A stretch of 12,073 nucleotides of DNA from Selaginella moellendorffii (lineage: Eukaryota > Plantae > Lycopodiophyta): positions 1 to 12,073 of the forward strand of contig NW_003314583.1 in the NCBI RefSeq assembly GCF_000143415.4. Reading direction: 5' to 3'. Under the pieces are notes generated by a model. It searched no databases and was not told the DNA's origin. It worked only from the letters and a program-made list of their open reading frames with translations. Position 1 is the stretch's first letter; each line of letters opens with the position of its first letter. Below, in pieces: positions 1 to 12,073 of this stretch. A program made the position numbers and the translations under genes.

Positions 1-3000
1 TCGTGGACAAGATTGACTCAGTGGTATGGGCAGCATCAAGTGGAGCGTGGTCAGCTTGCTTGGCGTTGATATGGATAGTAGCCTCCACCAGCTCTGATGA
101 CTCTTGCAGCCAAGTAGAGTCCACTGGCGGATCCATATGCATGTCCAAATATCTCCCTTCGATTGAGATGGTATCCTCCCGTGCTACTAAAAACAAACTC
201 ATTAGCACATTGAATCGACTATACTGTATTTACCATCAACTGCTATTGAGGAACTAGGACCGATATCACTTGAGCGCACTGCTGATTCTGAAGGATTGGA
301 CATACGTTTCGACCCTTGCTTGGCACTATCCTTCCTCGACACTAAAGGCTAGAGTTTGTAAATTCAACTGAATAATCTCTACTTACCATTTGCTCTGCGA
401 CCTACATGGACAATGTTAGAAATGGTAAAAGGTTAGGAATGGATGTATTATTATTTACCTGATGGTTTGTCTTGTATGACCTTCCTCCGCCGCTCTTTGG
501 CCACCTCAGGCTGGCCATCGTCGTCATCATCGTCGTCGTCGTTATTGTGATCGTCACCATTGTGAGGACCATCCAAGTCCTCTTCGTCCTCCTCTTCTTC
601 GTCCTCCTCTTCTTTGTCCTCCTCTTCGTCCTTCTGCTCTTCCTGCTCATTATCTTTCTCTGGCTCCTCATCCCCCTCCTGCATTTCTTCCATAGGCTGC
701 TCAGGCTGGATGGCTTGTTCTTCCAGGACCATCTTGGGAAAATCATCTGGCCGAGTCTCCATCTCAAAATACAAGACATCCATAGCCTGTTTTAGTGCGT
801 GACCTAGGACCGTATCCTCACCCGACTGTCTTAACATGGTTTCTGCACGTTCTTGCACCCTTCAAAGATGACAAGATGAGAAAAACGTGGCCCTGACTTG
901 AAAAGCTTCCCTCATCCATTGTACCTCTCCATTGAGATTGGGGAAGGGGAGTCTGCCATAGGAATCTGAGTCATGAGGTGGTGACTGCCTGCTTTCACTC
1001 AGCCCTTGATCTGCAATGAATGGCATGAGCACACACGCCATAACCGCGAGGCATTACCTATCATCTTTTCGTTGCCCTTCTTCCTTTTCGAATCAAACGC
1101 CTCTGATCTCGACGACTGTCCAACGTGCTTTCGCTTTTTATGACCACTGTCAGTTTGAGCTTGGCTGGTGCTTGCCTGTTTTGCCTTTGAAGAAGTTTCT
1201 CCTGCAAGAAATGGCATGAGACCACACGCCATTGCAAATATAATTTGTACCTCCTTTTTTCCTATTGCTTTTCTGTTTGTCCTTCTTCGATGCGCCACCA
1301 GTGCGCTTTTCAGTCCTCGTGTCTGAATATTCACAACGATCTATAATCAAAATGGCGTGAGGCCTCACGTGACCTTACCTTGTGCAGGTTGTGAGCTCGG
1401 CCCAACATGGGTATCTTCAACAGTAGCTGTTAACGCCGTTTCAGCATCTGGGGGTGGCCACGCTCCTGCATACAGAGCTTGTGAGATAACATTTAAACTT
1501 AAAGTGCGTACTCACCAGGTTCGCAGAGAAGATACTGTTTTTCTTTGGCAACTGTAATTATATGCTCCATTGAAGTCACCTCTTCAATGGAGTTTGTCAC
1601 CGCAACACACGGGACACCCTTGAGTAGTGCGGCTCGAAAGAATAGTCTGCCGCAGTTGTACTCGACAACGCATTTGCCCTTGGAGTCGGAAGCAGGTGAC
1701 CCACCCGCTATTGCGTTGAAGACCCAGCTGAGCATTTCCCATGCTGCACCTGGAGCTTTCTTTGGATTCGAAAGCTCCATAGCTGTCTTCAGTTCCTCAG
1801 GCACGGGTAAATTGACCTCCCTCAGATCAATTCGATTGGCCTTGTCGAACGAAGCTGGGAAGTCACTCCAGTCCCACTCTGCTGCAGGACCAATAACAAG
1901 GGCGAGTGTGAAGATGCGGACATTCGTCGGTATCTTCTTCTTAGCCATTATCCCATGGATCTCCCGCATCTCCTTGCCTTTCAACCGAGCCTTCACCTCG
2001 TTCAAGGCCTTCCAGAACTTGTGATAGGATTCGGAGTCGTAGATCATATAGTGGACTGAAGATTCCACCTCCGCAAGTCCCACCATTAAGTCAATGATGG
2101 AGCTGACTTCGTCTGCATGAGTGATCTCCTCGTTTGTGAAGTCCATCACACAAAAGATGTTCTTGACCTGCTCATCTCCGCGGGAAACGATGCTCCTCCA
2201 CCTTTGATCCTCATCCGAATTCAAGTATACCCGGTAAGGTTCTCGATAGGCCTCTGCTGCGGGGTCGAGCTGTTTCTGAAGCCGGCGGTCGACATCAATC
2301 TTAATGAAATTTGGATACTGATCCAACTTCTCAGCTTTACTTTTCGTGGCATCCCGCAGCAGATCGATGAACTTGGGGGCCCCCTTCACGTACTCGTCGA
2401 TGTCTTCATTTGACAACTCCAGCGCTTCCATCATCTCTTGCGTGGTGTCGATGCTCACCCTCTCCATGNNNNNNNNNNNNNNNNNNNNNNNNNNNNNNNN
2501 NNNNNNNNNNNNNNNNNNNNNNNNNNNNNNNNNNNNNNNNNNNNNNNNNNNNNNNNNNNNNNNNNNNNCAGAGTCGTGCACAAGTCCTCGTATGTCACAA
2601 TATGGCCGGGAGTCATTTTGGTTTTGTTGAAGACAACCTCACCATGTAGAAGAGCATTAGCCACTGTCAGAAGGTCGTCGTCGTCTAGAGACCGCGAGAA
2701 ACGCAAGGCGTTGAGCTTCAAATCATTGGGCTTCCGGCCGTCCTCCACACCCATTGAGTTTGGCAACTCCCCGTCATGGTACCTCCTCAGCACATCTACC
2801 CATTTGTCAAAAACAACTTTTGTCGTGAGTAGAATGTTATGGATGCTGAGTGTGTCATTGACCCCCAGTGTTTTCGAGAGAAGACTCGAGAATTCCTGCA
2901 ATGGAAATGGCATGAGGCCACATGCTATGCCACATACAACGAGGCTTACCTGCCAGGCACTACTTACTAGTGCACGTCCTTGTCCTGGTTTTTGTGGCTT

Positions 3001-4102
3001 CTTCAGTTGAACCCAGAGCTTCCATGTTCGTGCCAATGTCTCGTGCAGACCCGATTTGTAGCACGTTTCTTGCTTGACATTCTGCGCGTGGGAGATGTAT
3101 ATGATAGATCGGAGGGGCGAGTTGCCTTTTATCAGGCGGACAACTCTTGTCTTGAAGACTTTCTTCACCTCCTCGCCCACCATAATATCCACAACTATCT
3201 CTTGCATCGCCAAGCTAGAATGCTGCCCGGAGACGGCATAGAACCGGATGTTCTGATCGTCCAACACCTTCCTATTGATCAAGTCTGGAAACTTCATCTC
3301 GCCCTTCATTTTTTGGTAGTAGGGGATCACGTCTGCGATGTCGGGTGTTACTGGACTTGCCAGCATCTTCTGCTTCAATTTCTCCACCCACTCATCAGAT
3401 ACTAGCCTGTGGTTGTATTTGCTTTGGATGTCGATACGGCTCACGTCGATTGTATATACTTTGTTGGAATAGTAACAAGTACTATTATCTGCGACGATTT
3501 TTGCTGCCTCTTCTTGCTCTTTCTGCTCTTTGCGGCTCTTCTTTTTGGTGGGTCTAGTGTTCGAACCCGAGGCAATGGCATCACTGAGTAGCTTCTTTTT
3601 TGGAGCAGGAGAGTCGGATGTCGGCTTGAGCTTGACCACCCTTTTCTGCTTCGAGGTAGTTTCCAGATCGACCCCCTTCCCCTTTGCTTCGCGAACTGGA
3701 GTCACTCTCAACGGCTCAATGTTGGAATATAGTTTTTGAACATCGCCGTAGGTGAGGTCCGTGGATTCCATGTGATCTTCATAGACCCGCAGCGTCTTTG
3801 AAATTGTGGGCCTCCTGGACAACCTCTCCCTAGCTCCCTCTAGGAATTCCTCATAGCCGCTGCCCCCCTCCGGGAAGCCGCTAGGATGTGCAAGGTGGAT
3901 CTTGAAGGCAGACGCTGTCTCTACCACAAGTGCCAGTCCATATTCTTGCATGGAACTGCATGGAGTGTCCGTCACTTGGATGAGGATCCCCATGCATTCT
4001 TTTCTCCCACCATCTGTGTTGTACAGCCTCAGATCCTCGGCTTCCATCCCGAAAGTCCAACTGGTGAGCTCCTCCCCCTTCTCTGCATCCACATTGACAG
4101 TG
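1..4102 (-). CDS. Multi-exon gene for a large protein: ParB/Srx-like domain, degenerate N4/N6 MTase-like region, acidic/disordered C-terminal tail. 5' end is probably in the N gap; 3' end runs off the window.
   Basis: Exons reconstructed by hand on the minus strand: 4102-2950, 2895-2569 [gap] 2468-1516, 1465-1379, 1340 (or 1322)-1251, 1201-1058, 1010-~925, ~859/825-459, 401-387, 341-234, 186-<1. GT-AG introns: 2949-2896 (54 nt), 1515-1466 (50), 1378-1341/1323 (38/56), 1250-1202 (49), 1057-1011 (47), 458-402 (57), 386-342 (45), 233-187 (47). The frame stays open across all of these. The junction near 925-860 is unresolved, and continuity across the 100-N gap is assumed. Confidence 0.75.
515..695 (-). 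repeat. Low-complexity Glu/Asp-coding tract
   Basis: Encodes EEMQEGDEEPEKDNEQEEQKDEEEDKEEEDEEEEDEEDLDG...DDDDDDDD; imperfect 15-bp repeats at ~582-630. Confidence 0.9.
1020..1373. repeat. Three copies of the 22-bp palindrome, one in each of three consecutive introns
   Basis: 1020-1041 ATGGCATGAGCACACACGCCAT; 1211-1232 ATGGCATGAGACCACACGCCAT; 1352-1373 ATGGCGTGAGGCCTCACGTGAC. Confidence 0.9.
2469..2568. other. Assembly gap (100 N)
   Basis: Run of N; a round 100 suggests a placeholder of unknown true size. Confidence 1.
2907..2928. repeat. 22-bp palindrome within the 54-nt intron 2896-2949
   Basis: ATGGCATGAGGCCACATGCTAT. Confidence 0.9.
3070..3465 (-). other. ParB/Sulfiredoxin-like (DGQHR-type) domain within the minus-strand gene
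   Basis: YTIDVSRIDI..YNHRLVSDEWVEKLKQKM resembles Box I (NPR....L..L..SI). FYAVSGQHSSLAMQ resembles Box II (Y.++.G.HR..A). YISHAQN resembles Box III (EN). The order and approximate spacing match. Confidence 0.6.
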
Positions 4103-4897
4103 NNNNNNNNNNNNNNNNNNNNNNNNNNNNNNNNNNNNNNNNNNNNNNNNNNNNNNNNNNNNNNNNNNNNNNNNNNNNNNNNNNNNNNNNNNNNNNNNNN
4201 NNNNNNNNNNNNNNNNNNNNNNNNNNNNNNNNNNNNNNNNNNNNNNNNNNNNNNNNNNNNNNNNNNNNNNNNNNNNNNNNNNNNNNNNNNNNNNNNNNNN
4301 NNNNNNNNNNNNNNNNNNNNNNNNNNNNNNNNNNNNNNNNNNNNNNNNNNNNNNNNNNNNNNNNNNNNNNNNNNNNNNNNNNNNNNNNNNNNNNNNNNNN
4401 NNNNNNNNNNNNNNNNNNNNNNNNNNNNNNNNNNNNNNNNNNNNNNNNNNNNNNNNNNNNNNNNNNNNNNNNNNNNNNNNNNNNNNNNNNNNNNNNNNNN
4501 NNNNNNNNNNNNNNNNNNNNNNNNNNNNNNNNNNNNNNNNNNNNNNNNNNNNNNNNNNNNNNNNNNNNNNNNNNNNNNNNNNNNNNNNNNNNNNNNNNNN
4601 NNNNNNNNNNNNNNNNNNNNNNNNNNNNNNNNNNNNNNNNNNNNNNNNNNNNNNNNNNNNNNNNNNNNNNNNNNNNNNNNNNNNNNNNNNNNNNNNNNNN
4701 NNNNNNNNNNNNNNNNNNNNNNNNNNNNNNNNNNNNNNNNNNNNNNNNNNNNNNNNNNNNNNNNNNNNNNNNNNNNNNNNNNNNNNNNNNNNNNNNNNNN
4801 NNNNNNNNNNNNNNNNNNNNNNNNNNNNNNNNNNNNNNNNNNNNNNNNNNNNNNNNNNNNNNNNNNNNNNNNNNNNNNNNNNNNNNNNNNNNNNNNN
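4103..4897. other. Assembly gap (795 N), probably containing the 5' end of the minus-strand gene
   Basis: Run of N; the ORF is open into the gap. Confidence 1.
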
Positions 4898-5625
4898 TGC
4901 ATGCACGCGAAATCCAAAAGAAAGATCATGATTGGGATATCATTTAATACCCTCGCTATATTTATACCATGCATGATTGGATATTCCAAAGCATCTTGTA
5001 TTTCCAAAAATGCCAGATGTTCAGCTAAATAAATTGTCAGAGGATGACGTTCAAGCATGTGGGCTCATGCAATTTTGATCCCAAAAAATGCACCAAAAAA
5101 TGCTCGGCGTCATCTGGCGTTATCTCTTGAATGGCGTGGGGCCGCATGCCATTTTCAGGAGCACATAGGAGTATATTCCTAGAATATTCTAACACGCGCG
5201 AGATTGTTTTGAGTTTCCTGGAGATCCAACCGTTAGATCGCAACTAGATTTTACAGAATGGTATACAATGTCCTTCTTGATGACCTTGCAAAGAAGCATC
5301 TCGATCGGACACCACATGAGACCACACGAGCCTTACAATGTTTCAGGGGCATTTGCCATAGATCCAACCGTTATTTTGCTCCAAGATTCTACAGTTTGGT
5401 GTGCATTGACCTTTCCATCGACACTGCAAAGGGACATCACAATCAGATGCGGGATCACAAGAAACCAACTTCACTAACTCTGGTTTCACCAAGATCTACA
5501 TAAGGAGTTATGAAATGAAAGGACCCTCTCTATTGAAATGTGTTTATGGTCCTATGGGCATTGTGACATATCCAAGGATTTTGCATCAAGTTCTGTATTT
5601 GCATGTTTATCAAGCTACTGAATTG

Positions 5626-5651
5626 CTAAACCCTAAACCCTAAACCCTAAA
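5626..5651 (+). repeat. Interstitial plant telomere repeat / telo-box cluster (CCCTAAA)x~3.7
   Basis: ctaaa-ccctaaa-ccctaaa-ccctaaa. Confidence 0.9.
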
Positions 5652-6264
5652 CATGTGGCAAATGCTGCGTGAAGAAAGATGCCCTTTCTGGGCAAATGCT
5701 GTAAGAGGCAGATGCCGAGCAGATGTATCTCAGGCTAGTGAAGGGGACAAACGAAAGCTAGCAACCAAAGGAATGTAAGCAACCAAAGGAATGTAAGTAG
5801 GGCATGTGTTTGTAAGTTTAAAAATGCCTCAACCACTTATATTCCCAAGTAAATAAAGCTGTTTCTATTTTTGGTACAGGTAAACTTTATAGCGTGTGGG
5901 CTCATGCAATTTTGAACCCAAAAATGCACCAAAAAATGCTCGACTAGCATTATTCTTTGAATGGCGTGTGGCCTTATATTGCCATAAATGACACAGCATA
6001 ATTATTCCTTTACACGGCGAATAATCTTGGAGCACATAGGAGTATATTCCTAGAATATTCTGACACGCGCGAGATTGTTTTGAGTTTCCTGGAGATCCAA
6101 CCGTTAGATCGCAGCCAGATTTTACAGAATGGTATACAATGTCCTTCTTGATGACCCTGCAAAGAAGCATCTCGATCGGACACCACATGAGACCACACGA
6201 GCCTTACAATGTTTCAGGGGCATTTGCCATAGATCTGACCGTTATTTTGCTCCAAGATTCTACA

Positions 6265-6364
6265 NNNNNNNNNNNNNNNNNNNNNNNNNNNNNNNNNNNN
6301 NNNNNNNNNNNNNNNNNNNNNNNNNNNNNNNNNNNNNNNNNNNNNNNNNNNNNNNNNNNNNNNN
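6265..6364. other. Assembly gap (100 N) inside the tandem array; true copy number unknown
   Basis: Run of N flanked by repeat units. Confidence 1.
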
Positions 6365-6825
6365 ATAGGAGTATATTCCTAGAATATTTTGACACGCGCG
6401 AGATTGTTTTGAGTTTCCTGGAGATCCAACCGTTAGATCGCAACCAGATTTTACAAAATGGTATACAATGTCCTTCTTGATGACCTTGCAAAGAAGCATC
6501 TCGATCGGACACCACATGAGACCACACGAGCCTTACAATGTTTCAGGGGCATTTGCCATAGATCCGACCGTTATTTTGCTCCAAGATTCTACAGTTTGGT
6601 GTGCATTGACCTTTCCATCGACACTGCAAAGGGACATCACAATCAGATGCGGGATCACAAGAAACCAACTTCACTAACTCTGGTTTCACCAAGATCTACG
6701 AAAGGAGTTATGAAATGAAAGGACCCTCTCTATTGAAATGTGTTTATGGTCCTAGGGGCATTGTGACATATCAAAGGATTTTGCATCAAGTTCTGTATTT
6801 GCATGTTTATCAAGCTACTGAATTG

Positions 6826-6857
6826 CTAAACCCTAAACTCTAAACCCTAACCCTAAA
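6826..6857 (+). repeat. Interstitial plant telomere repeat / telo-box cluster (degenerate, ~4.6 units)
   Basis: ctaaa-ccctaaa-ctctaaa-ccctaa-ccctaaa at the position equivalent to 5626 in another repeat unit. Confidence 0.9.
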
Positions 6858-7672
6858 CATGTGGCAAATGCTGCGTGAAGAAAGATGCCCTTTCTGGGCA
6901 AATGCTGTAAGAGGCAGATGCCGAGCAGATGTATCTCAGGCTAGCGAAGGGGACAAACGAAAGCTAGCTATAAACATGACGGGATGCAAATAGATTACTA
7001 GGCTGGTCCTGCGAAAATCAAAAACCATAATTGAAAACATTGAAAATGCAAAAAGAAAGGTTTATAATATTTTTGAATTTTAAGCAACCAAAGGAATGTA
7101 AGTAGGGCATGTGTTTGTAAGTTTAAAAATGCCTCAACCATATAAATTCCCAAGTAAATAAAGCTGTTTCTATTTTTGGTACAGGTAAACTTTATAGCGT
7201 GTGGGCTCATGCAATTTTGAACCCAAAAATGCACCAAAAGATGCTCGACTAGCATTATTCTTTGAATGGCATGTGGCCTTATATTGCCATAAATGGACGT
7301 ACACACACAGCATAATTATTCCTTTACACGGCGAATAATCTTGGCACGGATCGCTGACATGGCATGGCAAAGTTCGAATCACTGACATGGCACAGCTGGA
7401 TCGAGGCAAGGACATGATGTGACAAAGTTCAACCTCCGACAGCAAAGTCTAGAAGCTACTCAGTTTGAAATTTGTCAGAGGAATCATAAGATCTGGTTTG
7501 TCAGAGGATTTGATGTGACGTTCAAGCGTGTGTTATTTTTGAATTCTCGAACTCATTCCTAGGTCTATCATTTTTGTGCGCCGTGTTCTTGGTTCCGCTG
7601 AGCGCAGTGAGCGCTGCTTGTGTAAGCAGCGTTGTGAGCTGTGGTTTATGCGTCTACAAGCGGTTGCAGCAT

Positions 7673-7786
7673 TGCGAGCGCCATTGCGAGCGGCAGTTTA
7701 TGCGAGTGGCAGTTTGTGCGAGCGGCGCTACGAGCAGTTGTGGTGTTGCGAGCGGCGTTACGAGTAGTTGCGGTGTTGCGAGCGGC
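7673..7786 (+). repeat. CpG-rich micro-array of TGCGAGYG(G)C x6, including a 30-bp tandem repeat (x2.3)
   Basis: TGCGAG at 7673, 7685, 7701, 7717, 7747 and 7777 (spacings 12, 16, 16, 30, 30). Confidence 0.9.
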
Positions 7787-7857
7787 ACTGTCTTTGGTGT
7801 GGCTACCGCTTCCTCTTGATATTCGGCACTTGTGCTTCCTGGTATGTTCACCATGGA

Positions 7858-8070
7858 ATGGTTTAGGACCACATTTAGAAATGGCATGAGGCCACATGCC
7901 ATCTTGGGCCCTTGCAATTTCATGGCTAGCGTATTGTCATGTATGTTTTTACTTGCCTGCAGCTGTGTGTATATCAAGATGGCATGAGGGCTCATGCCAA
8001 TTTTGTGAATGCGAAATTTCACGTGGGTGTCAATAGCATGTTTGAATAATGGCATGTGGCCTCATGCTAT
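7858..8070. promoter_or_regulatory. Cluster of 22-bp palindromes just upstream of the transposase ATG (5'UTR/intron region)
   Basis: 7881-7902 ATGGCATGAGGCCACATGCCAT; 7979-8000 ATGGCATGAGGGCTCATGCCAA; 8049-8070 ATGGCATGTGGCCTCATGCTAT; a degenerate copy at 7858. There is a polypyrimidine acceptor TTTCAG ending at 8142 and GTATGT donors at 7842 and 8074. A regulatory role is inferred. Confidence 0.6.
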
Positions 8071-8143: not shown

Positions 8144-11100
8144 ATGGCCTTTAGGGTTGGGGAAAAGGTTTACATTTTGAATGGTGGGAAGAGAGTTGCA
8201 AAAGGGACCCTTGTGTCTATGGATCGGAACTTTGTTATACACTGTCAAAGGCTTGGGGAAGGCAATGCTGCTGTATCAGTAGAGACTGTCTTCGATGGGA
8301 ATGTGGTCGCTATTGAACGAGGAGAGATGGTCGTCGGGGTAAATGTTGTTGTTGCCTTGAAAAATCTGCAGAAGAAAGCAGATGTTGGGGACAGCGCAAG
8401 TGCGACGCATGTTCCCTCTGTGGATCTTAAGAACCGTGCTACATGGATTCAGGCAAAGGTGTTTCTAAACAACCCCGAGGGGGAGGTGGTAGCTGAGGGC
8501 TTAGCCACAGTTGTCGATCCAAGAGATGCGGTTGCTAATCAAGAATTGGGCTGGGATGATATTGGAGTTGCAATTTTAGAGGTTGTTGACACAGAAGAAA
8601 ACAGTCTGACTATTGGAAGCATTGTGCGGTGGAAATTGAGGCATTTAGTGTTTGAGAATGTGAAGGATTCACAATCAAACACCACTACAACTGATGACAG
8701 AACATCTCTTCATGGGAAAAGAAAGTACACCTTCCTACAGCGCAGCCAAAGGGATCTGAGCAACGAACCGAAAAGGCAGAAAATGGCGATGGAGGTTCGA
8801 ATGGTCTCGACAGTTGCTTGTTGCAAGAGGAGGTGCTGTCAACATGCTGATTGGGATGCTATTGAAGAGGAGAGAGCAAGATACAAGACATTGTCCTGGA
8901 AGGCAGCTCGCAATTTTGTGTATGAGGCATTACGGTCATCTGTTGATGCTTCAAAACATCAGGTGGGGGGCATGGTCTTCCAGAGGGGTTTGGTCTGCAT
9001 GAAGGCATGGAGAATCATTTATGGAGTCCCTCGAACCACATTCTACAGAATCAAAACTGAGTTCGAGGAACAAAGGGTTCAACAGGCAGTCCATGGGAAC
9101 GACGGTACGCACAAAACCAGGGGTCATGTTGTATATGGAGAGGCAATCTTCAAGAGGTTTGTCGAGACATGTAGCGAGCAGCAACCACATAAAACCCGCC
9201 TCTTGGAAGATGGAACACGAGACACCCAACGAGTTCTACCTTCCATGTATACCAAGGGGGCCATATTGGAAGATGTGAATCGGGAACTCCAGAGTAATGG
9301 CTACAGGAAGCTGAGCCAATCTAGATTTAGTAGATTGTGGAGCAACAGGTTCAGGGATGTGAGTATAGGAAAGTACTCCAGCTTTTCAAAGTGTGACGAG
9401 TGCACTGCTATCAAAATGGCTTTGTCGAAGAATTCTTGCAGCGCTCAAGAGCGAGAGACGTTGGTTAGAATGCGGCTCAACCACAACATCGAGCAGAGAA
9501 GCTGCAGGACTGCATATTATCATAACAGGATTCTCTCCATGGAGAGACCTGACTCTTACCTCTGCATCATCCACGACAAAATGGACCAGAAAAAGACGTG
9601 CTTACCTCGACTCAATCCTGCTCCCAAGGCAATCTCTTCATCGATGCAGCTGCCTGTGTCTCTGTTTGGCATAATCGCTCATGGGCATGGTGCCCAGAAC
9701 TATGGGAACTTCTTTGTACCTCTATGGGGTGGCGGGGGTGCAAACATGATGATTGCGTCCCTAGCAAAACACTTAAGGTCTCTGCAAAGTGCGCAGACTG
9801 AGCTGAACGGCCAACCCTTGCATAAGGCCCTTGTCGATGGAACCCCATACAGGGTTCAGCTGGAGGAGGAGCAAAGGCTTGCAGTATCGCGTGGGGCCCC
9901 ATGCCATCCCAGTGAATATGTTGGCTGTCAGATTGTAGGGTTATCACGTGAGGCCTCATGCCATTCCGACGAGGCTGGTCGCCCGGTGAATGCACAGCCT
10001 CATCCAAACGAAGCAGAATCTCAAGGAAGTTCTTGCGGCCGATGTGGCCTTCCACCCCATCTTCTGCTCCAAACAGACAATGCTGGCAGTGAGAACAAAA
10101 ACATGTACGTCTTCGCGTACTTGGCGATGCTTGTTGCCAAAGGCATATTTGAAACGGTTACACTTGGCTTTCTCATGGTTGGGCACACTCATGAAGACGT
10201 CGATGCCATGTTCAGTCACCTGGCAGAGTCCCTCCAGCGATCCAATGTCCTCACCCTCCCACAACTCTACGATGAATTCCAAAATTGCATCAAAGGCACT
10301 GTTGAAGCTGCACTTGTGACAGAGGTTCCAGACTTTAAGGGGTTTGTAAGAGGCTACATCAGGGATGGATCCGAAACGCTGATTGGCCACTCCAAGCCTC
10401 TTCAGTTTCATTTCAGCATGCGTGACGGTGCTCCAGTGATGAGGTACAAGATGAGAGAATGGGACACAGTGTGGCTGCCAGTGGATGGCATTGAACTCTT
10501 CAAGAGAGATCCCATAACTGGGGAACCTATGATTCCTCAGGGTTCCCCACAGCCGATGCACCCGGATGGACTCAAAGACCAGGAAAGTATAGTGGCCGGG
10601 ATTAGACAGCATATTGCCTTCTGGAAGAGGGGGTTGGTGTTTGGTGGAGAATCCTATTTTAAGAGGTGCAAGCCTTTGCTCGAATACTGGGAGAAGATTA
10701 TATCTGCTATCCAAAATGGGCCGGTTGTATATGAAGAATTGGAAGAGTCCTTTTGGCCAGAACCCAGAGCACTAGATAGTAGCGGAACAATGTCCTCTGG
10801 AAATGCAGTGACAGATAACGATGTTGAGGATCACTATTGTGGGCCGAGGAACAAGAAGCCGGATTCAGCATTCAATCCAGTACAGGTCTGCAAAGGAATG
10901 GTCGTGCTTGTCAGACCCAGTAATAAAAAACAAATGATATGGGTGGGGCGCTGCATCACTGATGCAGAGGAGGACGCGGAAACTAACTCCTTCAATGTAA
11001 CTGTGGAGTGGTTCAAGCCAAGTTCCGGATATACGAAGGATTGCCTAGAAAAGAGATGGGTGCTGAATCCAAGGGATCCCAGCATAAGCATATCGGTGGA

Positions 11101-11282
11101 TAATGTTGTGCATGGTTGGATGTGGAAGCAGAGTGCCACCATCACCTTGCCAGACCATGCAAGAGATGCAGCAAGAGCATTCATAACCCGGGTTCAAGGT
11201 GAGATTTAATATTCCTTTACTAAGTTTCTAATGTATTTTATTTCAAGGTGAACAATCCGAATTTGAATCAGAGGAGGCGTGA
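8144..11282 (+). CDS. Sola-like DDD transposase (DUF7869-type, GHTHEDxD clade), ~1020-1030 aa; uninterrupted ORF 8144-11209 with a probable terminal intron 11199-11247 and last exon 11248-11282
   Basis: The 1021-aa ORF has Cys-rich CCKRRCC and C-x3-W motifs, FSKCDEC (C417/C420) and IIHDKMDQKKT.LP (D478). It also has GGGANM, LLLQTDNAGSENKN (D645) and FLMVGHTHEDVDAMFS (D687). This motif order resembles Sola1/Sola2-type RNase H-fold transposases as recalled from family knowledge; no search was run. Splicing at CAAG|GTGAGA ... TTTCAAG|GT gives the C-terminus VQGEQSEFESEEA*. Confidence 0.8.
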
Positions 11283-11672
11283 TGGCATGTGGCCCTTTGC
11301 ACTAGTATATCTTAATACCGGTCTGAGAAATAGAATGGCATGTGCCCTCAGGCCTTTTACTAAATCACCTTTGAAAGAAATGCAAGCCTCTATGTCGTAA
11401 AAAAAAGGTACTAGAGAAATTCCTTAATAATATGAATGTTATTTAGTTTCATGAAAATACACTAAGGGTCAAATGAGTTAAATGACTTCTCCAGACTAGC
11501 AATGCCTCTTGCTACACCTTCACAATTAGATTCGTTAGAAAAAGATAACATTGAATAATATCTAAATGTTCTCACCATTAAGTTATATGTCTAGCTAATA
11601 GGAATGACGTTCATCTTGGAAAGCTCACCACACGCTCAATGAACAAACAAATAGTGTGTGCGCGCATGCCAT
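11282..11672. repeat. Degenerate palindrome copies downstream of the transposase
   Basis: 11282 ATGGCATGTGGCCCTTTGCACT; 11335 ATGGCATGTGCCCTCAGGCCTT; 11651 ATAGTGTGTGCGCGCATGCCAT. Confidence 0.75.
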
Positions 11673-12073
11673 CGCTCTTCTTTAGCTTCAGATTCGGCTT
11701 GTTCACCTTGACAATGAGATTTATTATACAACCAGATGGACTCAGTCTGGACACAAAGTCACCGCGCTAGTCACCATGCCCCAGATATGTCTAGCCCCTG
11801 GACAAAAAACATATAATTTCACGTCATTTTCAAATACTTGAAAATTTGTACCTAGTCCCATTTTACTGAATAAATCCCACTTTAACGAAATAGAGCTTAT
11901 TTAAGGGTTGGTTACATTCTCCACAGGCATAAGCAACTAAGCACACCAAACCTCCAAGTTTTTAACATCCCTTGGTATAACAAAACTTGATCACAAATTT
12001 TTCCTTTCCAATTTGCCAGCTTACCTCGTCTATCCGACCAACTCTGCCTTGGCTTGTGCTAAGTTCCCTCGCC

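What the first reader, a model, noticed from the sequence alone, without database searches (positions are those of the whole stretch)
1011..2949. Palindrome sits inside four tiny introns and avoids exons of the ParB-like gene
Introns 1011-1057, 1202-1250, 1341(1323)-1378 and 2896-2949 each hold exactly one palindrome, filling about 40-58% of the intron. With the nearer acceptor at 1341, each lies 9-11 nt from the 3' splice site. No copy was seen in ~3.5 kb of predicted exon. Inference: either the introns act as carriers that place binding sites within a coding gene, or the palindrome itself seeded the introns (introner-like gain). An RNA hairpin next to the acceptor could also allow splicing autoregulation.
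Basis: partly seen in the sequence, partly recalled or inferred. Interest (0 to 1): 0.8.

Follow-up and report, generated by a model that had tools for sequence, protein, structure and literature searches.

The report
Transposon palindromes doubling as branch points
A highly repeated plant jumping gene scatters a 22-base palindrome, likely a docking site for one of its own proteins, mostly through its non-coding DNA, and in four tiny predicted introns half of the palindrome likely also serves as the splicing branch point, a tightly packed variant of a design already described in algae.

Summary
Four predicted introns (38-54 nt) each hold one 22-bp palindrome, 9, 9, 11 and 11 nt from the acceptor; the gene's exons hold none. 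But the gene has eight predicted introns and four lack it; the window has 16 sites, 10 intergenic and 2 inside the transposase reading frame. The window lies inside a high-copy plant DNA transposon (DUF7869 transposase plus a divergent ParB-fold gene). Of 53 related loci, 18 carry their own palindrome family, almost wholly outside coding DNA. So the motif is most likely an element-wide DNA binding site kept out of exons by coding constraint. The fixed spacing has a simple likely cause: all eight introns have a branch-like yTnAy with its A at -15 to -19, and in the four palindrome introns the palindrome's 3' half supplies it. Introner-like seeding is not supported: the 2896-2949 intron position is shared with homologues at 23-34% identity. 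Splicing was not shown (RNA run almost empty). ParB cargo with inverted repeats is published for algal transposons, and this scan noted it on five other windows; I did not find the branch-point overlap in print.

The parts
1020..1041 (.). 22-bp palindrome in predicted intron 1011-1057; its sense-strand 3' half gives the branch-like A at -16
1211..1232 (.). 22-bp palindrome in predicted intron 1202-1250; branch-like A at -16
1352..1373 (.). 22-bp palindrome in predicted intron 1341(1323)-1378; branch-like A at -18 with the 1341 acceptor, -36 with 1323
2907..2928 (.). 22-bp palindrome in predicted intron 2896-2949; branch-like A at -18
1011..1057 (-). predicted intron, 47 nt, phase 1, with palindrome
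   Evidence: retention gives 6 stops against 1 when spliced
1202..1250 (-). predicted intron, 49 nt, phase 1, with palindrome
   Evidence: retention gives 24 stops against 1
1341..1378 (-). predicted intron, 38 nt (56 nt with the in-frame acceptor at 1323), phase 1, with palindrome
   Evidence: retention gives 11 stops against 1; the acceptor is undecided
2896..2949 (-). predicted intron, 54 nt, phase 0, in frame without a stop, with palindrome; position shared with distant homologues
   Evidence: gap against P0016, P0018, P0019; scores rise when it is removed
1466..1515 (-). predicted intron, 50 nt, phase 1, no palindrome; branch-like A at -17
402..458 (-). predicted intron, 57 nt, phase 1, no palindrome; branch-like A at -15
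342..386 (-). predicted intron, 45 nt, phase 1, no palindrome; branch-like A at -18; other copies carry a 4-nt insertion inside it
184..233 (-). predicted intron, 50 nt (47 with the acceptor at 187), phase 1, no palindrome; branch-like A at -19 (-16)
1..4102 (-). accessory gene; the start is hidden in the gap 4103-4897 and the end lies beyond base 1. ParB/Srx-fold domain at about 3030-3460, then a helical domain, a weakly methyltransferase-like region (about 1517-2260) and a long low-complexity tail; one in-frame stop at 862-864 in this copy, where most other copies carry a different base
8144..11209 (+). intron-less DUF7869 transposase-like reading frame, 1021 aa
   Evidence: PF25273, E 3e-42; 12 homologues
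9886..9964 (.). two palindromes (9886-9907, 9943-9964) inside the transposase frame, in a stretch that varies in length among homologues
5052..8070 (.). seven palindromes between the two divergent genes (5052, 5131, 5889, 7194, 7881, 7979, 8049; 5889 and 7194 lie in a tandem duplication)
11282..11672 (.). three palindromes downstream of the transposase (11282, 11335, 11651)

Best explanation
The palindrome is likely a double-stranded DNA site for a dimeric protein that the transposon itself encodes, most likely the ParB-fold accessory protein, and it sits in four of the gene's eight predicted introns because introns are the only freely changing DNA inside that gene. Shown: 16 sites over the element, 14 outside coding DNA; a ParB fold in the predicted structure; element-specific palindrome families beside related transposases. 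Inferred: binding, and its purpose (marking the element's own copies so that they are expressed or escape silencing, as VANC does for VANDAL). Inferred for the spacing: in a 38-54 nt intron a 22-bp site can only fit if it overlaps a splicing signal, and here its 3' half (yTnAy) would serve as the branch point, which fixes the site 8-12 nt from the acceptor.
For: All 8 predicted introns have a yTnAy with its A at -15 to -19; in the four palindrome introns that motif is inside the palindrome and is the only one in that range. In the four palindrome-free introns the chance in shuffles is 0.17, 0.25, 0.16 and 0.15 each (product about 0.001), so the range is the gene's own geometry. The sense strand carries the yTnAy half in 4 of 4 intron sites, against 9 of 24 site-strands elsewhere. 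18 of 53 related loci have a family of 3 or more palindromes against 0 of 106 resampled controls; 1 of 196 matrix hits in 29 loci falls in transposase-matching sequence; each family has its own sequence. Symmetry fades beyond about 11-12 bases from the centre and the near-central positions are complementary (mean 0.86-0.88 at positions 2 and 3), which a hairpin loop would not need. Fold: PadC Z 9.5 (rmsd 5.8, 132 aligned), KorB Z 9.0 (rmsd 8.7, 149), pNOB8 ParB Z 8.1 (rmsd 3.8, 103); the ten best Foldseek rows are Noc, ParB or KorB, E 1e-3 to 1.3e-2. Published precedents: Sola1-1_Ec32 (PMC12477816), Plavaka PAG3 beside inverted-repeat arrays (10.1101/2025.02.11.637652), VANC21 bound in introns and intergenic DNA (PMC5735166).
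Against: No binding data. No ParB-like gene was detected in any of the 80 related loci (64 flanking frames scanned against Pfam), including L035, a 7.1-kb element between inverted repeats that has six palindromes, although many contigs are short or decayed and homologues are only 23-34% identical. Splicing is untested: 3 of 9.2 million RNA records lay on 1-4100, and the contigs of X20 run unspliced across 1011-1057 (X20 may be DNA). The yTnAy branch consensus is recalled, short and not derived for this organism. The 1341 acceptor was chosen after the fact and makes a very short intron. Two sites lie in the transposase frame. The resampled control does not imitate tandem repeats, in which many of the relatives' palindromes lie.
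Confidence: 0.55

Rival explanations
1. The palindrome is a DNA site for the DUF7869 transposase (or for a protein made elsewhere in the element), not for the ParB-fold protein; intron placement and branch-point overlap would be explained in the same way.
For: Palindrome families flank the transposase in 18 of 53 related loci, in none of which a ParB gene was detected; L035 looks complete and shows no such gene. The abstract of 10.64898/2026.08.24.746577 reports that a transposase alone can activate its cognate copies (abstract only).
Against: Detection of the ParB gene is weak at this divergence; ParB proteins are known binders of inverted repeats, and the Bostrychia preprint reports arrays next to its ParB gene; the sites lie throughout the element, not only near the ends.
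Confidence: 0.25
2. The main function is in RNA: a hairpin that hides the branch point and tunes splicing of the accessory gene.
For: Predicted folds pair the palindrome arms over the branch-like A in three of the four introns; whole-intron energies are -16.2, -14.5 and -7.5 kcal/mol, and the fourth (-11.8) folds differently.
Against: 10 of 16 sites are intergenic and both orientations occur; near-central bases are complementary in relatives; in relatives I saw only one weak hit between coding segments, with no clear intron around it (L025); no Rfam match.
Confidence: 0.08
3. The palindrome is a site for a host transcription factor or a neutral product of local duplication and conversion within the element.
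For: Many sites in relatives lie in tandem arrays; two sites here come from one duplication.
Against: Each related element has a different palindrome of similar width, which fits a co-evolving element-encoded partner better than one host factor; the window's sites have unlike flanks and keep both arms.
Confidence: 0.08
4. The palindrome seeded the introns as an introner-like insertion.
For: Regular position in the intron; the 5' parts of introns 2896-2949 and 1011-1057 are somewhat alike (p 0.02, one of six pairs); all seven tail introns are phase 1, which hints at a shared way of arising.
Against: The 2896-2949 position is shared with distant homologues; four introns lack the motif; 5 of 6 pairs are unlike; the palindrome is internal, not terminal; no target duplication is seen; 12 of 16 sites are not in introns.
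Confidence: 0.04

Closest known systems
Sola1-1_Ec32 of Ectocarpus (PMC12477816; passages read; figures and supplements not seen)
   Same: Giant DNA transposon with an accessory gene on the strand opposite the transposase, encoding a ParB-like domain; the authors propose that it binds and modifies its own element.
   Different: That protein has a recognisable N4/N6 methyltransferase domain; here no catalytic or SAM-binding motif was found and profile tests were negative. The word 'palindrom' does not occur in its main text; I saw no intron-borne sites described. Brown alga, not a land plant.
Plavaka (EnSpm) PAG3 of Bostrychia (10.1101/2025.02.11.637652; passages read)
   Same: Transposon accessory protein with a ParB domain next to inverted repeats, proposed to bind its own element.
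   Different: Tandem arrays beside the gene, not single sites inside tiny introns; the second domain is a 2OG oxygenase; a different transposase superfamily.
VANDAL/VANC anti-silencing system of Arabidopsis (PMC5735166; passages read)
   Same: Element-specific short motifs concentrated in introns, intergenic and terminal non-coding DNA, differing between related elements.
   Different: VANC motifs are 9-bp, non-palindromic and in dense tandem repeats; VANC binding and demethylation are shown by experiment; no likeness of the proteins was seen (VANC was not compared directly).
Bacterial ParB/Noc/KorB with parS-type inverted repeats
   Same: ParB-fold domain followed by a helical domain; repeated palindromic sites in the same replicon.
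   Different: No ParA seen; the CTP-binding arginine patch (recalled as GxxR) reads SGQHS here; sites are 22 bp, not 16 (recalled); a eukaryotic, spliced gene.
Introner elements (recalled; search listing only)
   Same: Short introns that share an internal sequence.
   Different: No near-identical introns, no terminal repeats or target duplication, and one intron position is old.

Membership tests
Sola superfamily DNA transposon | Transposase matching the Sola RNase H-like profiles | not testable with these tools
   Sola has no Pfam model according to PMC5751038; the protein matches DUF7869; linking DUF7869 to Sola rests on recall and on earlier scan notes
Sola superfamily DNA transposon | Terminal inverted repeats and 4-bp target duplication (recalled) | tested here: inconclusive
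   No end of the element lies in the window (flat depth); relative L035 has 98-nt inverted repeats 6.9 kb apart, but its target duplication could not be fixed
ParB-methyltransferase accessory gene (Sola1-1_Ec32 type) | ParB-like domain | tested here: met
   Structure model, pLDDT mostly 70-95 over residues 11-150; ParB family at the top of both fold searches
ParB-methyltransferase accessory gene (Sola1-1_Ec32 type) | Gene on the strand opposite the transposase, within one element | tested here: met
   Divergent genes, both at similar high depth in DNA runs; no single contig joins them other than the window
ParB-methyltransferase accessory gene (Sola1-1_Ec32 type) | N4C/N6A methyltransferase fold | tested here: inconclusive
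   Atlas hits to PF01555 at 0.87, a lead only; model too poor (pLDDT 34.6); a profile of 33 methyltransferases gave no match; Pfam, PHROGs, NCBIfam and PDB negative
ParB-methyltransferase accessory gene (Sola1-1_Ec32 type) | Catalytic (D/N/S)PP(Y/F/W) and FxGxG motifs | tested here: not met
   Neither pattern in the 485 + 710 residues read; about 15 residues in the gap at 2468-2568 and the N-terminus are unseen
VANC-type anti-silencing system | Element-specific motif enriched in non-coding parts, introns included | tested here: met
   14 of 16 sites non-coding; different motifs in relatives
VANC-type anti-silencing system | Element-encoded protein binds the motif and removes methylation | not testable with these tools
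   Needs ChIP, in-vitro binding and methylomes
Introner | Near-identical introns at unrelated, recently gained positions | tested here: not met
   5 of 6 pairs unlike outside the palindrome; one position shared with distant homologues
Introner | Copies in host-gene introns across the genome | not testable with these tools
   No whole genome is held
Spliceosomal intron | Removed from transcripts | tested here: inconclusive
   RNA run X24 gave 3 reads on 1-4100 and no joints

The most novel reading that the evidence does not exclude
A land-plant transposon family runs a ParB/parS-like self-recognition code in which each element has its own ~22-bp palindrome, and in this lineage the site has been fused with the intron branch point, so that the same bases are read as DNA by the ParB-fold protein and as RNA by U2 snRNP. 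This would tie recognition of the element to splicing of the recogniser's own message: the site could not drift without breaking the gene, and the hairpin or the bound protein could throttle the protein's own production.
Probability: 0.2. Interest if true: 0.75.

Novelty: new variant of a known kind. Interest (0 to 1): 0.45.

Why it matters
How transposons recognise and protect their own copies is shown by experiment for few systems (VANC, TnpA). A ParB-fold protein with a long, element-specific palindrome is a compact and testable case in non-seed plants, and the family-wide turnover of the palindrome offers natural site-protein pairs for studying co-evolution. The overlap of a protein site with the branch point in ~50-nt introns would be a clear case of one sequence read at both the DNA and the RNA level. 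The basic design is already in print for algae, which limits the surprise.

Tried and rejected
No RNA holder listed on record for 700-2460. RNA run X24 gave 3 and 1 reads on the two halves, so splicing could not be read; this is one sample, about 12% of the run. No whole genome is held, so host introns and other copies could not be searched. Searches for longer relatives of the ParB part and for relatives of 1517-2467 found none. No relatives of the transposase and no exact motif matches in viral contigs. Methyltransferase identity of 1517-2260: Pfam, PDB, PHROGs, NCBIfam, phage tblastn, a single-sequence model and a custom profile were all negative or uninformative; absence from these lists does not exclude the fold. 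No ParB gene in related loci; the single weak hit (L048, E 0.019) lies in a frame that looks like a host repeat-protein gene. Tail exons are not detectably alike (6 of 6 pairs p 0.2 or more), so duplication of an exon-intron unit as the source of the phase-1 introns is not shown. My first gene model had two introns off by 1-2 bases, corrected. My palindrome finder misses AT-rich or longer families (L011 has one), so 18 of 53 is a lower bound. A homodimer prediction for the ParB domain could not be queued and gave no verdict. Literature: 'DUF7869' 0 papers; ParB + Sola + transposon + methyltransferase 5 listed, 1 relevant; Bostrychia + ParB + EnSpm 2; Selaginella + short introns + branch point 3 listed, none read; introner terms 3 listed, none read. 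The original Sola paper was not obtainable. No Rfam match.

Full report
What the window is. The whole window lies inside one very high-copy repeat. The window's copy differs from the majority mostly by T>C and A>G (29 of 55 and 26 of 36 places in run X1), as expected from decay of methylated cytosines (inference). Plant-type telomere repeats occur inside it; earlier notes on the same genome call the host a clubmoss (not tested). The plus strand has an intron-less 1021-aa frame (8144-11209) matching DUF7869 (E 3e-42), with 12 homologues at 27-97% identity. That DUF7869 marks Sola-type transposases is recalled and was not testable. The minus strand has a divergent, spliced gene. Language-model features link the same stretch to fungal DUF3723 proteins (score 0.97). 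A middle region only hints at an N4/N6 methyltransferase (0.87); every direct test was negative or uninformative and no catalytic motif is present.

The observation. The four segments, their palindromes and the distances of 9, 9, 11 and 11 nt are as described, and the pattern is far beyond chance. Removing seven predicted introns downstream of the first gap gives 710 codons with one stop; keeping any one of them raises the stop count to 4-24. Most other copies have a different base at that one stop (864). The only indel listed, 4 nt, falls inside predicted intron 342-386. Two corrections follow. Four of the eight predicted introns have no palindrome. And the motif belongs to the whole element: 4 sites in introns, 10 intergenic, 2 in the transposase frame, in a stretch whose length varies among homologues. 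RNA gave no test: 3 of 9,211,280 records lay on 1-4100, and contigs of a run that may be DNA cross 1011-1057 unspliced.

Did the palindrome make the introns? Not the one that can be dated. Of 11 homologues found among 1.84 billion representatives, three that span the site (P0016, P0018, P0019) lack 13-18 residues where 2896-2949 lies, and their scores rise when it is removed (167 to 177, 173 to 194, 142 to 164). Six others (P0014, P0015, P0017, P0020, P0021, P0022) reach a valine near this point and end soon after, as frames read into an unspliced GT donor would (inference). P0013 begins after the site and P0023 ends before it. The position is therefore shared at 23-34% identity. Outside the palindrome, five of six intron pairs are unlike, one is weakly alike (p 0.02), and the flanks show only the usual AG. 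The three tail introns could not be dated.

Why the fixed spacing? All eight introns carry a yTnAy (branch-point consensus recalled) with its A at -15 to -19. In the four without a palindrome these are at -17, -15, -18 and -19, each with a shuffle chance of 0.15-0.25. In the other four the only such motif in range is the 3' half of the palindrome (-16, -16, -18, -18). An A at -15 to -19 forces the palindrome to end 8-12 nt from the acceptor, which is what is seen. The quasi-palindrome is also oriented to give this half on the sense strand in 4 of 4 introns, against 9 of 24 site-strands elsewhere (about 0.02 by simple multiplication). Limits: the motif is short, the acceptor at 1341 was chosen after the fact (with 1323 the A is at -36 and another candidate lies at -25), and the consensus was not derived for this organism. 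A loose end and a joint at low depth in run X18 look like the counterpart of intron 1011-1057 in a diverged subfamily, of the same length and with the palindrome in the same register (my reading, not shown to be one contig).

Is the palindrome general? A scan of metagenome contigs returned 80 loci (best 80 of 502) in 51 clusters. Of 53 loci picked at about one per cluster, 18 have three or more similar palindromes, against 0 of 106 resampled controls. In 29 of 50 loci with a seed family, 1 of 196 matrix hits lies in transposase-matching sequence. The consensus differs between elements; symmetry fades beyond about 11-12 bases from the centre, though my search fixed the arm at 11. The control does not imitate tandem repeats, and I had no set of unrelated plant transposons to compare. 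No ParB gene was detected in these loci, not even in L035, which has 98-nt inverted repeats around a 7.1-kb element. This keeps the transposase alive as the binding protein.

Mechanism. Most likely (0.55) the palindrome is a DNA site for the element's ParB-fold protein, spread over free DNA and squeezed into tiny introns by sharing bases with the branch point. Shown: positions, enrichment, fold, family-wide element-specific palindromes, old intron position. Inferred: splicing, branch-point use, binding, and a role in keeping the element expressed or unsilenced. Rivals: the transposase binds (0.25); a mainly RNA-level hairpin (0.08; folds would cover the branch A in three introns, so it may be a side effect); host factor or neutral spread (0.08); introner seeding (0.04).

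What is known. PMC12477816 (passages) describes a 21.5-kb Sola1 element with an opposite-strand ParB plus methyltransferase gene proposed to bind and modify its own element. Preprint 10.1101/2025.02.11.637652 (passages) reports inverted-repeat arrays beside a ParB accessory gene in Plavaka elements. PMC5735166 (passages) shows VANC21 bound in introns, intergenic and terminal non-coding DNA. Supplements of these papers were not seen and may show intron-borne sites. Five earlier notes of this scan describe ParB-plus-palindrome plant elements in other genomes; they gave me the first paper. None of my searches (scan index 54, 75) returned the branch-point overlap, but only one of them asked the paper library about branch points, and I read none of its three hits.

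Verdict. Real feature, partly as described; a new variant of a known kind; interest 0.45.

Noticed in passing
window 184-1515: All seven predicted introns in the low-complexity tail are phase 1, and one exon is only 15 nt (387-401); no likeness between the exons was found, so the cause is unexplained.
   Followed up: partly
window 5626-5652 and 6826-6858: Short plant telomere-type arrays inside a roughly 1.2-1.3-kb tandem duplication between the two genes; a contig in X1 has a telomere-like insertion replacing 3909-3994.
   Followed up: no
window 11243-11289 and 11665-11711: 47-nt inverted repeat, 81% complementary, 375 nt apart, each arm ending in half of a palindrome.
   Followed up: no
window 7600-7790: CpG-rich short repeat array just upstream of the palindrome cluster before the transposase.
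   Followed up: no
window 2572-3519: Language-model features link the ParB region to fungal DUF3723 (score 0.97); a search of DUF3723 with 'transposon' lists mostly Starship papers (listing only), which suggests that DUF3723 may be a ParB-fold protein.
   Followed up: no
L035:1782-8904: Apparently complete 7.1-kb relative with 98-nt inverted repeats, six palindromes and no recognisable accessory gene; a good object for fixing the superfamily's ends and target duplication.
   Followed up: partly
L011:8727-9392: Three copies of a roughly 30-bp AT-rich palindrome upstream of the transposase, missed by my finder.
   Followed up: no
L025, L028, L031, L047, L070, L072: A group of relatives shares a palindrome with the same GGCC centre as the window's motif, and in L025 and L047 the same outer three bases.
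   Followed up: no
window 2468-2568: The masked gap is 46 bases in other copies, not about 100.
   Followed up: no
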